DNA from: a virus
Lineage: Duplodnaviria; Heunggongvirae; Uroviricota; Caudoviricetes
Virus record (IMG/VR): IMGVR_UViG_3300029249_000134
Coordinates: 1 to 6,295 of that record
Length of the DNA stretch: 6,295 nucleotides
Direction: 5' to 3' (one strand)
The notes under the pieces were generated by a model that saw only the letters and a program-made list of their open reading frames with translations, did not search any database and was not told the origin of the DNA. This document shows positions 1-2,753 of the stretch, in pieces; within the stretch, counting starts at the first letter, position 1; the number at the start of each line of letters is the position of its first letter. Both the position numbers and the translations under genes were made by a program.

Positions 1-1685
1 ACCAGTTGCTGCGCCTCTGTCTGCGAAAAAATCTCCGGATCATCAGGAAAACGGATGGCATACGACGTGGCTTCATCCGCAGGCGTGGGATCGGCTTTCA
101 TACGGGCATAGAGAATTTCTTTTGCGGTGTCCGTTCCCACTTCACACAGATACACGCCCCGCTGATTGCGGGTTTTTGGCATGGTGATCACCGGCTTGCC
201 ATAGACAGATGCGCCTTTTACCGGCAGCACCCGGAAAACACCGTGTTTTTTTGATCTCTGATAAACAATTTCACCATCGATCCCCCCGGTGTCCCAGCAG
301 ACACGGGAAATAGTCATTTCGGTGCCATCCGCATGGCGGTATTTTTTGTTGATCGCCGCATCCACACGTAACAGCGTCTCTTCCTCATCAGGACGCCCCA
401 TAATGATGATTTTATCCACCAGAAAGGCTTCCTCTCCCAGAGCCCATCCCCAGACATACATCTCAAAACGGTTTCGCTGCGAGTCAATGCCCGCCGTCAG
501 ATAAACCACCCGGGCAGGCACCGCCGCCGTGTAACGCACCACCTTATCCATCAGTACCTGGTGATCGAGTTTTTCGCCCACGGCCTCTTCCCAGGTCTCG
601 CCCAGCGTGGTGTTCACAAAGGTTTTCAGGCCGTTGGGATCTTTCAGTGCATCCAGCCAGTCATAGACAATCTGTACCCAGGTGGTGAACGGACTGTACG
701 CCGTCCAGATATGGAACGTGATGGAGCGCGGCGGCGGAATTTCATCACCCCGGGCGCTGAAAAACGTCAGACCGTCACGGGTCCACATGCCCGTGTTTTC
801 ACAGATCCACCGCCCGTTACTCTGGTCAAGCTCAGACTGATGGATCACACAGCCATGATGCTCACAAAGGTAGAAAACACTTTCTGGCTTATTCTTCTCC
901 CACTTAAGACCGAAAGGCGAGGCATCATCGCCAAATTTCAGATACTGCTCCTCCCCACAGTGCGGACAGGGCACATAAAAACGCATGAAGTGTGCCGACT
1001 CGTTAGCGGCTTTTTCGATCTGGCAGGTGCCTTTGATTTTAGGCGTCGAGCCGCGAATGGATTTTGGCCACACCGACCCCTCAATACGCTTATCCCCCAG
1101 CAGGGTTGGCGAGCCCTCTTTTTCGACATCCGGCTCGAACGAGGAAAGTTCGTCATAGCAGACCACGTCCACGGATTTTTCACGGTAGTTTTTGGCGGCA
1201 GCGCCGCCCAGGCACCAGAAACCGACGCCCGATGAAAAGCGTTTCAGCGTGAGAGTATTGTCACGATGTTTACGACCCAGCCATGGGGAAAGGTCTTTCA
1301 GGCATGGCACGTTCCGAATCGTCGCCTCCACGTGAGACTTCATAAAATCTTCAGCGGCAGAATCCGTGGGCTGAAAAAGCAGACTGTTTCGGGATTTATG
1401 CTCAATAAAATACCCGACCACCCCCAGCAACATCTTTGTATAGCCAACACGGGCAGATTTAATCAGGTTAACCGTGCGAACCTGGTCGTTACCCATACAG
1501 TTCATAATGGCGATCTGGAATGGCAGCGTTTTCCATTCTCCCTCACCATATGAAGATTCTTTAGGCAGATAATAATTTTGATCAGCCCATTCAACTGCCG
1601 TCATTGGTACAACCCTGACCAGAGGCTGCAGCGCAACCGAAACGGCAGCCATCATATTATTCAGTTGTTGCTCTGATATATTCAT
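1..1685 (-). CDS. A: Terminase large subunit (lambda gpA-like), partial; C-terminal ~80 residues lie beyond the window start
   Basis: Manual minus-strand translation from ATG at 1685 gives MNISEQQLNNMMAAVSVALQPLVRVVPMTAVEWADQNYYLPKESSYGEGEWKTLPFQIAIMN..., then ...KRFSSGVGFWCLGGAAAKNYREKSVDVVCYDELSSFEPD... and ...YVPCPHCGEEQYLKFGD..., ending at the window edge with ...AIRFPDDPEIFSQTEAQQL. Frame is open across all 1685 nt and matches remembered lambda gpA (MNIS start, AVEWAD, C-terminal FPNNPDIFDLTEAQQL). Start overlaps the Nu1-like gene by 29 nt, as in lambda. Not in the ORF track because it has no in-window stop. Confidence 0.93.
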   Translation of the reverse strand, partial: MNISEQQLNNMMAAVSVALQPLVRVVPMTAVEWADQNYYLPKESSYGEGEWKTLPFQIAIMNCMGNDQVRTVNLIKSARVGYTKMLLGVVGYFIEHKSRNSLLFQPTDSAAEDFMKSHVEATIRNVPCLKDLSPWLGRKHRDNTLTLKRFSSGVGFWCLGGAAAKNYREKSVDVVCYDELSSFEPDVEKEGSPTLLGDKRIEGSVWPKSIRGSTPKIKGTCQIEKAANESAHFMRFYVPCPHCGEEQYLKFGDDASPFGLKWEKNKPESVFYLCEHHGCVIHQSELDQSNGRWICENTGMWTRDGLTFFSARGDEIPPPRSITFHIWTAYSPFTTWVQIVYDWLDALKDPNGLKTFVNTTLGETWEEAVGEKLDHQVLMDKVVRYTAAVPARVVYLTAGIDSQRNRFEMYVWGWALGEEAFLVDKIIIMGRPDEEETLLRVDAAINKKYRHADGTEMTISRVCWDTGGIDGEIVYQRSKKHGVFRVLPVKGASVYGKPVITMPKTRNQRGVYLCEVGTDTAKEILYARMKADPTPADEATSYAIRFPDDPEIFSQTEAQQL

Positions 1686-2166
1686 CGAGTAAATCCGGTA
1701 ATTTATCCCCTGCCCGCGCACACTGATTTGCCCCCTTCGCAATAAGGGTTTTCAGATGGTCAAGATGGCGCGGTGTTAAATCAGGAAACTGTCGCTGCAT
1801 GGATAAAGGGATGGAATCAAGCGTACTGGATAACGCCATTGCCAGCTTACTGAGGGCAAAAATACAGAACCCGGTGTCAATAAGTTTTCCTTTTGACACC
1901 TCATTTTTTAACTGCTGTGTAACAGCCTGTTCTGCTGTCAGTTCCCATCTGGCAATAAGCAATTTCTCCTCATAGTCGTCTTCGCTATCGCCATCAGGCA
2001 CATCGTTTTTACTTCTCCTCAGATACGATATGTAAAAATCGCGCCAGGCATCCAGATCCAGTTGCCCTCGCTTATTCGATATCGGGGCACCCGGCAATTT
2101 CTGCAATCTGCGAAGCTGGCGATCGGTCAGACTTAAATGCCTGGCAACTTCAGTCTGCGTAGCCAC
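1657..2166 (-). CDS. nu1: Terminase small subunit (Nu1-like); N-terminal DNA-binding domain diverged from lambda, C-terminal half lambda-like
   Basis: 169-aa ORF from the track. C-terminal half (…DTGFCIFALSKLAMALSSTLDSIPLSMQRQFPDLTPRHLDHLK…LPDLLDEYI) aligns by eye with lambda Nu1 (…ETAFCTFVLSRIAGEIASILDGLPLSVQRRFPELENRHVDFLK…IPGLLSEYI). N-terminus (TQTEVARHLSLTDRQLRRLQ) is HTH-like but unlike lambda. GTG start at 2166 with a TGA in frame immediately upstream and GAGG 6 nt upstream. Confidence 0.88.
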   Translation of the reverse strand: MATQTEVARHLSLTDRQLRRLQKLPGAPISNKRGQLDLDAWRDFYISYLRRSKNDVPDGDSEDDYEEKLLIARWELTAEQAVTQQLKNEVSKGKLIDTGFCIFALSKLAMALSSTLDSIPLSMQRQFPDLTPRHLDHLKTLIAKGANQCARAGDKLPDLLDEYIRATTE

Positions 2167-2213
2167 TCCTCACCTCGCAAAAACTCTCACCTCACAATCA
2201 CAACAAAACCGGT

Positions 2214-2225
2214 CATGTCCGGTTT
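2214..2225 (-). repeat. cosB R1-like element (putative small-terminase binding site), motif AAACCGGACATG on the phage strand; sits inside a 7-6-7 palindrome 2206-2225
   Basis: Plus strand catgtccggttt; one of three copies of the same ~11-12 bp motif between the Nu1-like start and cosN. Function inferred by analogy to lambda R1. Confidence 0.55.
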
Positions 2226-2243
2226 ACATGTCTGTTTTTTGTT

Positions 2244-2255
2244 CATGTCCGGTTC
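2244..2255 (-). repeat. cosB R2-like element, same orientation as the R1-like copy
   Basis: Plus strand catgtccggttc, 30 bp from the R1-like copy. Confidence 0.55.
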
Positions 2256-2300
2256 ACAGAAGACCTGTTTTTATATTTTTCATATAGTTAACTTGAAGAG

Positions 2301-2312
2301 AAACCGGACATG
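2301..2312 (+). repeat. cosB R3-like element, inverted relative to R1/R2-like copies and closest to cosN
   Basis: Plus strand aaaccggacatg. Separated from the R2-like copy by an A/T-tract spacer (2256-2300, tttttatatttttcatatag) where lambda has the IHF site I1. The inverted R3 / spacer / R2 / R1 layout mirrors lambda cosB. Confidence 0.55.
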
Positions 2313-2349
2313 GATCCCGGAAAATTTTCATAAATAGCGAAAACCCGCG

Positions 2350-2361
2350 AGGTCGCCGCCC
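2350..2361. other. cosN cohesive-end site (12-nt overhang GGGCGGCGACCT on the minus strand), within a 45-bp block (2317-2361) identical to the lambda left end
   Basis: Reverse complement of 2317-2361 is GGGCGGCGACCTCGCGGGTTTTCGCTATTTATGAAAATTTTCCGG, matching the lambda genome start from memory. The adjacent 2362-2370 (reverse complement ccggttacg) resembles the lambda right-end terminus. Lies ~185 bp upstream of the Nu1-like start, as in lambda. Confidence 0.85.
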
Positions 2362-2396
2362 CGTAACCGGTCGGATCGCCGGAAAGGACCCACGAA

Positions 2397-2413
2397 ATGA
2401 TAATGATTATCAT
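2397..2413. promoter_or_regulatory. Perfect 8-1-8 palindrome ATGATAATgATTATCAT (Fur-box-like operator candidate) abutting a TATATA -10-like hexamer (2415-2420)
   Basis: Read directly. 2399-2413 GATAATGATTATCAT matches 14 of the first 15 positions of the Fur consensus GATAATGATAATCATTATC. Lies ~36 bp beyond cosN and ~150 bp upstream of the plus-strand ORF at 2568. Confidence 0.3.
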
Positions 2414-2567
2414 CTATATAAGGTTTATCACAACATGTGTGTACGCCATCAAACCACGAGAAATAATCAATTATGACGCAGGTATCGTATTAATTGATCT
2501 GCGTCAAATTAACGTAAAAGCAACTTCAGATAATACAAATCAGCAACACTGAATATGGGGAAACATT

Positions 2568-2753
2568 ATGTCATCAAAGAACAGAACCCGCAGAACAACA
2601 ACCCGCAACATCCGATTTCCAAACCAGATGATTGAACAAATTAACATCGCTCTTGATCTGAAAGGTTCAGGAAACTTTTCAGCGTGGGTTATTGAAGCCT
2701 GCAGAAGAAGGCTGTCAACAGAGAGTTCGGGTATGAATTACATAATTAAGTAA
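2568..2753 (+). CDS. Small (61 aa) basic protein, ribbon-helix-helix-like putative DNA-binding protein
   Basis: ATG at 2568 preceded by GGGGAAA with 7-nt spacing. Sequence MSSKNRTRRTTTRNIRFPNQMIEQINIALDLKGSGNFSAWVIEACRRRL has a basic N-terminal tail, a short strand (RNIRFP) and two helices, consistent with an Arc/MetJ/CopG-type fold. Opposite strand to the Nu1-like gene. Positionally reminiscent of ylcI/ynfO next to nohD/nohA in E. coli K-12 cryptic prophages, but the sequence match is not verified. Confidence 0.6.
   Translation: MSSKNRTRRTTTRNIRFPNQMIEQINIALDLKGSGNFSAWVIEACRRRLSTESSGMNYIIK

What the first reader, a model, noticed from the sequence alone, without database searches (positions are those of the whole stretch)
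2205..2368. cos site with lambda-identical cosN but a distinct cosB repeat set, matched by a diverged Nu1 DNA-binding domain
A 45-bp block including the 12-nt cohesive end is identical to the lambda left end, but the region where lambda has R3-I1-R2-R1 instead carries three copies of a different motif (AAACCGGACATG) in the same architecture: one inverted copy next to cosN, an A/T-tract spacer, then two copies in the other orientation. The Nu1-like protein keeps a lambda-like C-terminal half (which contacts gpA) but has an unrelated N-terminal HTH region. This is the pattern known for lambda versus phage 21 packaging specificity (shared cosN, different cosB and small-subunit specificity), so this prophage probably has phage 21-type or a further distinct specificity. 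The R1-like copy lies in a 7-6-7 palindrome (AAACCGG-tcatgt-CCGGTTT), which could bind a dimer.
Basis: partly seen in the sequence, partly recalled or inferred. Interest (0 to 1): 0.55.

Follow-up and report, generated by a model that had tools for sequence, protein, structure and literature searches.

The report
Lambda-like cos with new cosB type
This is the DNA-packaging start site (cos) of a lambda-like E. coli prophage: it keeps lambda's cutting site but has its own set of small-terminase binding repeats (core TCCGGTT), matched by a diverged small-terminase DNA-binding domain, so it most likely has a packaging specificity different from lambda, 21 and N15.

Summary
On the minus strand the window carries the lambda cohesive end (12 nt, 2361..2350) inside a 52-bp run identical to lambda, then repeats of CATGTCCGGTT(T). 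They lie where lambda has R3, R2 and R1, with an IHF-like site between the first two, 196 bp before a 169-aa small terminase (TerS).

The repeats are not chance: 6 matches against 0.5 expected. R3 is invariant in 51 distinct relatives. The R3/IHF/R2 positions are fixed in 8 enteric relatives.

All 50 distinct TerS N-terminal types found, from E. coli to Pseudomonas and Aeromonas, have TCCGGT at the R3 place. TerS residue 20 co-varies perfectly with the base 5' of TCCGG (Arg with G, otherwise T). Four hold-out predictions were all correct.

It is not phage 21-type. The recognition helix and the critical base pairs 56 and 59 differ from lambda, 21 and N15.

The conserved R1 copy points the same way as R2, unlike lambda.

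The element is common: 1139 of 5426 complete E. coli genomes. I rate it a new member of a known kind, of moderate interest. Binding and specificity are inferred, not tested.

The parts
2385..2391 (-). cosQ-like heptamer GGGTCCT, 30 to 24 bp upstream of the left-end base
   Evidence: Part of a GGGTCCTTTC block identical in lambda, phage 21 and the window, and present in nearly all relatives. That cosQ is a conserved 7-bp site comes from PMC4669245. Its exact lambda coordinates are from my memory.
2317..2368 (-). 52-bp block identical to lambda (p-7 to p45). It holds cosN and the spacer between cosN and R3.
   Evidence: Ungapped comparison with the lambda junction.
2350..2361 (-). cosN cohesive-end sequence GGGCGGCGACCT. 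The predicted 12-nt 5' overhang starts at 2361.
   Evidence: Identical to lambda and phage 21. Nicking itself was not tested.
2301..2312 (-). R3: CATGTCCGGTTT at p50-61, with the core TCCGG at p54-58. This is the predicted primary TerS binding site.
   Evidence: Exact motif copy. 100% invariant in 51 distinct upstream sequences. Same place in 8 enteric relatives. TCCGGT is at this place in all 50 TerS N-terminal types.
2278..2290 (-). I1: IHF-like site TAACTATATGAAA at p72-84, inside a 73% A+T spacer
   Evidence: 2 mismatches to YAANNNNTTGATW, the same quality as lambda I1 and within 2 bp of its place (p74). Relatives have 0-1 mismatch at p72-73. Composition. The IHF consensus is from general knowledge.
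2244..2255 (+). R2: reads CATGTCCGGTTC on the plus strand, so it is inverted relative to R3 (p107-118)
   Evidence: 1 mismatch. Fixed at p108 in 8 enteric relatives. 97.5% conserved.
2227..2238 (+). Degenerate copy CATGTCTGTTTT, probably not functional
   Evidence: 2 mismatches. Least conserved element, 83%. Absent from relatives.
2214..2225 (+). R1 (R1a): exact copy CATGTCCGGTTT on the plus strand, in the same orientation as R2 (p137-148)
   Evidence: Exact copy. Conserved at p138 in PhiR12 and in the Enterobacter kobei relative. A copy in the same orientation lies at p151 in a Klebsiella relative.
2206..2217 (-). R1b: CATGACCGGTTT in the R3 orientation (1 mismatch, in the T of TCCGG). It overlaps R1a to form the 7-6-7 palindrome at 2206-2225.
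   Evidence: It degenerates in relatives: 2 mismatches in the L182 group and in E. kobei.
1657..2166 (-). Small terminase (TerS), 169 aa, GTG start at p196. Residues 1-55 form a winged HTH domain; the C-terminal half is Nu1-like.
1..1685 (-). Large terminase (TerL, gpA-like), N-terminal 561 codons. It runs off the window.
   Evidence: 67% identical to lambda gpA over 561 aa. The start was placed by analogy with the PhiR12 annotation.

Best explanation
Window 2205-2391 (minus strand) is the cos site of a lambda-like prophage.

The large terminase is 67% identical to lambda gpA. It would nick the lambda-identical cosN to give the 12-nt end GGGCGGCGACCT. It would be positioned there by the small terminase bound to cosB.

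cosB here consists of R boxes with the core (C/G)ATG-TCCGG-TT(T/C):
- R3 at p50-61.
- An IHF site at p72-84.
- An inverted R2 at p107-118.
- R1 at p137-148, with an overlapping weaker inverted copy.

By analogy with lambda, IHF bends the A+T-rich spacer. A dimer of the TerS winged-HTH domains can then dock on the inverted R3 and R2 boxes, about 56 bp apart. That anchors TerL about 47 bp away at cosN.

The TerS recognition helix (residues 15-22, RQLRRLQK) differs from those of lambda, 21 and N15. The R boxes differ from theirs at the base pairs known to set specificity. This phage should therefore package its own DNA and that of prophages with the same cosB, but not lambda, 21 or N15 DNA, and the reverse should also hold.

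Within the family, residue 20 of the helix appears to read the base just 5' of TCCGG: Arg with G, and Asn, Asp, Thr, Ser or Glu with T. That would define sub-specificities.

Shown here: the sequence anatomy, conservation, positional constancy, co-variation, and the fold and homology of the domain. Inferred: binding, bending, cutting, and the specificity itself.
For: - Motif cluster far above chance: 6 matches against 0.52 expected, and 0 of 200 shuffles reach 6.
- lambda-identical cosN and spacer, and a cosQ block shared with lambda and 21.
- In 8 enteric relatives with 60-99% identical TerS, R3 sits at p50-51 and R2 at p108-109; 7 of the 8 also have the IHF-like site at p72-73 (E. kobei has it at p83-84). 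This holds although the spacers diverge.
- R3 is invariant in 51 distinct upstream sequences, while neighbouring spacers vary.
- All 50 distinct TerS N-terminal types, from enterics to Pseudomonas and Aeromonas phages, carry TCCGGT at the R3 place.
- The boxes within one phage change in concert. For example, a Klebsiella relative has CATTTCCGG, GATTTCCGG and CACTTCCGG.
- Residue 20 = Arg goes with G in 8 types. Residue 20 = N/D/T/S/E goes with T in 42 types. There is no exception at R3 or R2.
- 4 of 4 hold-out predictions were correct.
- A neighbour-joining tree suggests at least 3 independent switches.
- Residue 20 lies in predicted helix 15-22 of a winged HTH domain (pLDDT 82).
- The domain aligns to the same phrog_57 positions as the lambda and 21 domains.
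- Plaque-forming PhiR12 phages carry this TerS at 99.4% identity and this cos at 96.7%.
- The lambda model (R3-I1-R2-R1, IHF bend, dimer across the bend, critical bp 54-59) is taken from PMC9026076 and PMC4669245.
Against:
- The co-variation counts are not phylogenetically independent. The tree rests on 56 residues and is weakly resolved.
- If the R boxes are aligned with those of lambda and 21, the variable G/T base corresponds to their bp 56. Genetics assigns bp 56 to lambda residue 24 (window 23), not to the residue that co-varies here (window 20 = lambda 21). The contact geometry is therefore uncertain.
- The conserved R1 copy has the R2 orientation, unlike lambda, and many relatives lack R1. 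Its role is unclear.
- The IHF site in the window has 2 mismatches.
- Foldseek E-values for the small domain are not significant on their own.
- Whether this particular prophage is still active cannot be seen from a 6.3-kb window.
Confidence: 0.8

Rival explanations
1. The site has phage 21 packaging specificity. The repeats would be 21-type R boxes and the TerS a 21 gp1 orthologue.
For: - cosN and cosQ are shared with 21.
- The left half of the box (ATGTC) resembles 21's R boxes (CGTGTCGG, CATGTCGG).
- 21 gp1 has Arg at the helix position equivalent to window Arg20.
Against: - The N-terminal domains have no BLASTP similarity; only residues 64-166 align, at 40% identity.
- The recognition helices differ at 5 of 8 positions.
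- In register from cosN, bp 56 and 59 are C and T here, against G and G in 21.
- The box core is displaced by 3 bp, more than the 1-2 bp that lambda tolerates (PMC4669245).
Confidence: 0.03
2. The repeats are binding sites for some other protein, or chance repeats, and not small-terminase sites. One candidate is the divergently encoded YlcI/YnfO DUF3950 protein, or a late-gene regulator.
For: - No direct binding data exist.
- A small DUF3950 gene lies about 200 bp away.
- In distant relatives the box lies 20-28 nt before the TerS start codon, where a translational or transcriptional operator could also sit.
Against: - The motif follows the TerS N-terminal domain across genera where the upstream neighbours are unrelated.
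- It co-varies with a residue of the TerS recognition helix.
- It occupies the position, orientation and spacing of lambda's R3, I1 and R2.
- Chance is excluded.
Confidence: 0.05
3. The 2206-2225 palindrome is mainly an RNA hairpin or weak intrinsic terminator in the leader of the terminase operon, not a protein site.
For: The simple scan lists a 7-bp stem with a 6-nt loop followed by TGTTGTGATT on the minus strand.
Against: - Folding energy of the region is ordinary: z = -0.56, and 52 of 200 shuffles fold at least as well.
- The T tract is poor.
- One arm is an exact R-box copy conserved at p138 in relatives, while the other arm degenerates.
- The scan lists a similar 'terminator' over R3 itself.
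Confidence: 0.07

Closest known systems
Phage lambda cos (cosQ-cosN-cosB with R3-I1-R2-R1) and terminase gpNu1/gpA
   Same: - Identical cohesive end, and a 52-bp block identical to lambda around it.
- The same cosQ block.
- R3 starts at p50 in both, followed by an IHF-like site and an inverted R2 about 56-61 bp from R3.
- The TerS gene starts at p196 here and p191 in lambda.
- TerL is 67% identical and the TerS C-terminal half 46% identical.
- The TerS N-terminal domain has the same winged-HTH fold.

   Different: - R box CATGTCCGGTT against CGTTTCCGTT.
- bp 56/59 are C/T against T/C.
- The box core lies 3 bp nearer cosN.
- Recognition helix RQLRRLQK against RTIQNWQE.
- The N-terminal domains are not alignable by BLAST.
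- The conserved R1 has the R2 orientation.
Phage 21 cos and gp1/gp2 (the classical second specificity; M81255)
   Same: - Same cosN and cosQ.
- Tripartite cosB with an IHF site.
- R boxes share the ATGTC left half.
- Arg at the equivalent helix position.

   Different: - 21 boxes are C(G/A)TGTCGG(T/A/G), with bp 56/59 = G/G.
- The gp1 N-terminal domain is not BLAST-similar.
- The C-terminal half is 40% identical.

Phage N15 / Monarch group (simple against complex cosB with one shared specificity; PMC4669245)
   Same: The same split is seen in this family. Enteric members have the complex R3-I1-R2(-R1) layout. Distant members (Pseudomonas LPPA33, Aeromonas phiARM81ld, E. coli 705R4) have a single R site just before terS.
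   Different: - N15 R3 is GAGGTTGTTGTT (PMC4669245).
- The N15 TerS N-terminal domain is not similar; tblastn aligns only residues 59-164.
- The simple sites here are tandem TTCCGGTTCCGGTT.
Rpp proteins and cosB of E. coli PICIs (PMC6739421, PMC9026076)
   Same: - lambda-like cosQ and cosN combined with a different R3-position site read by a Nu1-like winged HTH.
   Different: - This element encodes a full TerS with the TerL-binding half, plus TerL, so it is a phage and not a satellite.
- It has an IHF site and an R2.

Membership tests
lambda-like cos site | 12-base 5' cohesive-end sequence with strong identity to lambda's | tested here: met
   GGGCGGCGACCT at 2361..2350, 12 of 12 identical. 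Actual nicking is not testable here.
lambda-like cos site | Conserved cosQ heptamer about 30 bp upstream of cosN | tested here: met
   GGGTCCT at 2391..2385 is identical in lambda and 21.
lambda-like cos site | R3 site at about bp 48-65 from the left end | tested here: met
   CATGTCCGGTTT at p50-61. It is invariant in 51 relatives.
lambda-like cos site (complex cosB) | IHF site between R3 and R2 | tested here: met
   TAACTATATGAAA at p72-84, 2 mismatches, as for lambda I1. Relatives have 0-1 mismatch at the same place. IHF binding itself was not tested.
lambda-like cos site (complex cosB) | R2 inverted relative to R3 | tested here: met
   2244-2255 lies on the opposite strand from R3. It is fixed at p108 in 8 relatives.
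lambda-like cos site (complex cosB) | R1 oriented like R3, opposite to R2 (PMC9026076) | tested here: inconclusive
   The exact and conserved copy at 2214-2225 has the R2 orientation. An overlapping 1-mismatch copy at 2206-2217 has the R3 orientation but degenerates in relatives.
lambda-like cos site | Terminase binds cosB and nicks cosN; the site supports packaging | not testable with these tools
   There is only indirect support. The PhiR12 phage records, whose listed hosts are laboratory strains, carry the same cos and TerS.
Nu1-type small terminase (PF07471 / phrog_57) | C-terminal oligomerisation and TerL-binding half homologous to Nu1 | tested here: met
   PF07471, 1e-18, residues 49-150. 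46% identity to lambda over residues 73-164.
Nu1-type small terminase (PF07471 / phrog_57) | [quoted passage not shown] | tested here: met
   - phrog_57 positions 12-71, E 3e-10; lambda and 21 match the same positions.
- Model pLDDT 82 with helices at 4-10, 15-22 and 38-54.
- The Pfam profile and a PDB sequence search miss this domain.
Phage 21 packaging specificity | gp1-type recognition helix, and R boxes with G at bp 56 and G at bp 59 | tested here: not met
   Helix RQLRRLQK against RTIERWQS. bp 56/59 are C/T. No BLAST similarity in the N-terminal domain.
Lambda packaging specificity | Nu1 recognition helix (Gln20, Glu24), and R boxes with T at bp 56 and C at bp 59 | tested here: not met
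   Helix and boxes both differ. The defining base pairs and residues come from PMC4669245.
N15/Monarch packaging specificity | R3 GAGGTTGTTGTT at bp 48-59 and the N15-type helix | tested here: not met
   The window has GGATCCATGTCC at p46-57 and R3 CATGTCCGGTTT at p50-61. N15 TerS aligns only over residues 59-164.

The most novel reading that the evidence does not exclude
This is an uncharacterised packaging-specificity class of the lambda-like cos phages, and the one most common in E. coli prophages (STEC O157:H7, UPEC CFT073). Its DNA recognition follows a simple rule that can be read from sequence: TerS residue 20 Arg reads G, and Asn/Asp/Thr reads T, next to the TCCGG core. If so, one could predict from genome sequence alone which co-resident prophages, defective prophages or satellites can package each other's DNA. 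The lambda, 21 and present R boxes would then be variants of one ancestral box read by one ancestral winged HTH.
Probability: 0.35. Interest if true: 0.6.

Novelty: new member of a known kind. Interest (0 to 1): 0.4.

Why it matters
Packaging specificity decides which DNA in a cell ends up in phage heads.

E. coli pathogens carry several lambda-like prophages at once. At least 80% of this cos region is present in 1139 of 5426 complete E. coli genomes, with up to several copies per genome. Prophages that share this cosB can package, mobilise or interfere with one another. That bears on the spread of virulence genes from "defective" prophages and on satellite (PICI) hijacking. CFT073, the PICI model host, carries exactly this TerS.

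The family also offers a natural data set for how a small-terminase winged HTH reads DNA. It comprises 50 domain variants with their cognate sites. It shows one clean residue-base co-variation and a transition between complex and simple cosB layouts.

None of this changes the known mechanism. It adds a specificity class and a testable recognition rule.

Tried and rejected
- A genome-contig scan with the TerS alignment gave only one distant locus, from an Azospirillum MAG. It was not used.
- The first viral-contig scan returned 80 near-identical loci. These served for conservation but not for diversity. Two further scans, each led by a divergent member, gave the diversity.
- NCBIfam has no model for this protein.
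- A full-text search for the motif strings found only unrelated primers.
- A search for the PhiR12 phages found no paper, and one literature query timed out.
- Three Feiss-lab Virology papers could not be checked: PMC5006951 and PMC4461450 are not held, and the 2017 cosN survey was not sought. They are the papers most likely to have catalogued other cosB classes, so prior description cannot be excluded.
- The terminator or hairpin reading of the palindrome was tested and found weak.
- I looked for co-variation at TerS residue 17 by eye and saw none that was convincing.
- Murialdo and Feiss mention a 'TerS-21 encoded by CFT073 prophage 4'. I could not establish whether that is the CFT073 prophage found here.

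Full report
**What is in the window**

Genes of a lambdoid late region run on the minus strand:
- a class II holin (6022-5807);
- a lysozyme (5119-4586);
- Rz and Rz1 (4104-3631, 3878-3693);
- a divergent YlcI/YnfO DUF3950 gene (2568-2753, plus strand);
- a non-coding stretch;
- a 169-aa small terminase (TerS, 2166-1657, GTG start);
- a large terminase that runs off the window (from 1685 down).

The cos query (2150-2420) is 100% identical to a prophage of E. coli CFSAN004176. At least 80% of it is present in 1139 of 5426 complete E. coli genomes, including O157:H7 strains and CFT073. Among 50,697 phage records only the PhiR12 series carries this TerS (99.4%) and this cos (96.7%).

**Checking the observation**

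- GGGCGGCGACCT is at p1-12.
- The uninterrupted identity with lambda is 52 bp (p-7 to p45). With phage 21 it is only 24 bp.
- A GGGTCCTTTC block at the cosQ position is shared with lambda and 21.
- The motif AAACCGGACATG occurs six times in the window at up to 2 mismatches, five of them between 2206 and 2312. Chance gives 0.52, and no shuffle out of 200 reached six.

Read in the TerS direction, the layout is:

| Element | Sequence | Position |
|---|---|---|
| R3 | CATGTCCGGTTT | p50-61 |
| IHF-like site, in a 73% A+T spacer | TAACTATATGAAA | p72-84 |
| R2, inverted | | p107-118 |
| Degenerate copy | | p124-135 |
| Exact copy, R2 orientation (R1a) | | p137-148 |
| Overlapping 1-mismatch copy, R3 orientation (R1b) | | p145-156 |
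| TerS start codon | GTG | p196 |

Lambda has R3 at p50-65 and Nu1 at p191.

**Is the repeat set a real cosB?**

I collected relatives of the TerS and the DNA upstream of their genes.

Eight enteric relatives have TerS 60-99% identical to the window's. In all eight R3 starts at p50-51 and the inverted R2 at p108-109. Seven of the eight have an IHF consensus match at p72-73, with 0-2 mismatches. An R1 at p138 or p151 is present in some but not all. The spacers have diverged and the cohesive-end sequences themselves vary.

Among 51 distinct upstream sequences of the window's own type, R3 is the only element with every column invariant. The degenerate copy and the short spacers are the most variable.

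More distant members come from Pseudomonas, Aeromonas phiARM81ld, E. coli 705R4 and metagenomic viruses. They have a single site, usually the tandem TTCCGGTTCCGGTT, 20-28 nt before the start codon. The same contrast between complex and simple layouts is known for Monarch and N15 (PMC4669245).

In all 50 distinct N-terminal types, TCCGGT sits at the R3 place.

**Co-variation**

The boxes within one phage change together. The base just 5' of TCCGG tracks TerS residue 20.
- It is G in every box of the 8 types with Arg20. These include one type (L156) that sits among the non-enteric members.
- It is T in the 42 types with Asn, Asp, Thr, Ser or Glu at residue 20.
- I then predicted the base for four proteins whose loci I had not yet seen: P0014 and P0031 (Asn), P0027 (Asp) and P0038 (Arg). 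All four predictions were right.
- A neighbour-joining tree of the 56-residue domain places an Asn/T member inside the enteric Arg/G group. That makes at least three switches. The tree is weakly resolved, so the raw Fisher value of 2e-9 overstates the evidence.

This pattern is hard to explain unless TerS reads these boxes.

**The TerS domain**

BLASTP aligns only the C-terminal half with lambda Nu1 (46%) and 21 gp1 (40%). Pfam's Nu1 model and a PDB sequence search also miss the N-terminus. The domain is nevertheless not unrelated.
- The first 60 residues match phrog_57 at profile positions 12-71 (E 3e-10). The lambda and 21 domains match positions 11-69 of the same profile.
- An AlphaFold model of residues 1-60 (pLDDT 82) has helices 4-10, 15-22 and 38-54 with a loop or wing between them.
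- In the alignment the hydrophobic positions match. Window R16, L18, L21 and Q22 align with lambda R17, I19, W22 and Q23.
- Residue 20 therefore lies in the recognition helix. It sits between the two lambda/21 positions (20 and 24) that genetics ties to specificity (PMC4669245).

**Which specificity?**

In lambda and 21, bp 56 and 59 of R3 decide discrimination. They are T/C in lambda and G/G in 21 (PMC4669245; checked). The window has C/T at those positions. The N15 R3, GAGGTTGTTGTT, is different again. The recognition helix RQLRRLQK differs from RTIQNWQE (lambda) and RTIERWQS (21). Phage 21-type specificity is therefore excluded as far as sequence can tell, and a further distinct specificity is the best reading.

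The boxes are still recognisably related:
- window: CATGTCCGGTT
- phage 21: CGTGTCGGT
- lambda: CGTTTCCGTT

The window box is placed 3 bp nearer cosN. That offset exceeds the 1-2 bp that lambda tolerates (PMC4669245). The variable G/T base of this family corresponds to bp 56 of the lambda/21 box. In those phages bp 56 is assigned to residue 24 rather than 21, so the exact contact remains open.

**Mechanism proposed**

Most of this is inferred from lambda (PMC9026076).
1. IHF bends the spacer.
2. A TerS dimer docks on the inverted R3 and R2 boxes.
3. The Nu1-like C-terminal half holds TerL, which is 67% identical to gpA.
4. TerL nicks the lambda-identical cosN.

R1 is accessory. It is absent from many relatives. 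Its conserved copy has the R2 orientation, which departs from the lambda rule that R1 matches R3.

**Rivals considered**
- Phage 21 specificity: excluded above.
- Another protein's site: contradicted by the co-variation with TerS and by persistence of the motif where neighbouring genes differ.
- A hairpin or terminator at the palindrome: the fold is ordinary, z = -0.56.

**Novelty and limits**

I found no description of this box or TerS class in the searchable literature. Three relevant Virology papers were not available to check (two are not held; the third was not sought). The mechanism is the known one; what is added is a specificity class and a candidate recognition rule. Nothing here shows binding, cutting or discrimination directly.

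Noticed in passing
window 2568-2753 (+): A 61-aa YlcI/YnfO (DUF3950) gene lies divergently about 200 bp from cosQ. It keeps this place in the CFSAN004176 and CFT073 prophages. By eye its sequence looks like a ribbon-helix-helix DNA binder. Its function next to cos is unknown.
   Followed up: partly
L003/L260 (lambda) p40-47; window 2317-2322: Lambda itself has TTCCGGTT inside the conserved cosN-R3 spacer. That is a core match to the R box of this TerS family, 13 bp nearer cosN than R3. The window has TTCCGG there. The CCGG is not conserved in other relatives, so this is probably coincidental.
   Followed up: partly
L015, L016, L017, L018, L099-L178 (20-40 nt before the terS start): Distant members of the TerS family have a 'simple' cosB. 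It is usually the tandem TTCCGGTTCCGGTT, and one member has three units. There is no IHF site and no R2. This parallels the N15 against Monarch contrast.
   Followed up: partly
window 2288-2413 (-) and 2137-2337 (+); L001 4077-4199: The open reading frames lying across cos are almost certainly spurious. The minus-strand one is annotated 'hypothetical protein' in the PhiR12_1 record.
   Followed up: no
L266 (E. coli CFT073, NZ_CP158446.1 3039045-3039554): CFT073 is the host of the model satellite EcCICFT073. It carries a prophage with exactly this TerS (WP_000235436.1) and a 95.6% identical cos. Whether the satellite's Rpp protein can redirect this TerS is not known to me.
   Followed up: no
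phage collection against E. coli genomes: This cos and TerS type is in about a fifth of complete E. coli genomes. Among 50,697 phage records it appears only in the PhiR12 series. It is thus common as a prophage and rare among isolated phages.
   Followed up: no
window 2401-2419 (minus strand, 40-58 bp upstream of the cohesive end): A second block, TAGATGATAATCATTATCA, is identical to lambda just upstream of cosQ and contains an imperfect inverted repeat. I did not look into whether it has a role.
   Followed up: no
L263 (P0038 locus), about 60 nt before terS: The third box of this relative reads TCATCCGGTAA. It is the only box seen in which the base 5' of TCCGG is neither G nor T. It is probably a decaying R1.
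   Followed up: no
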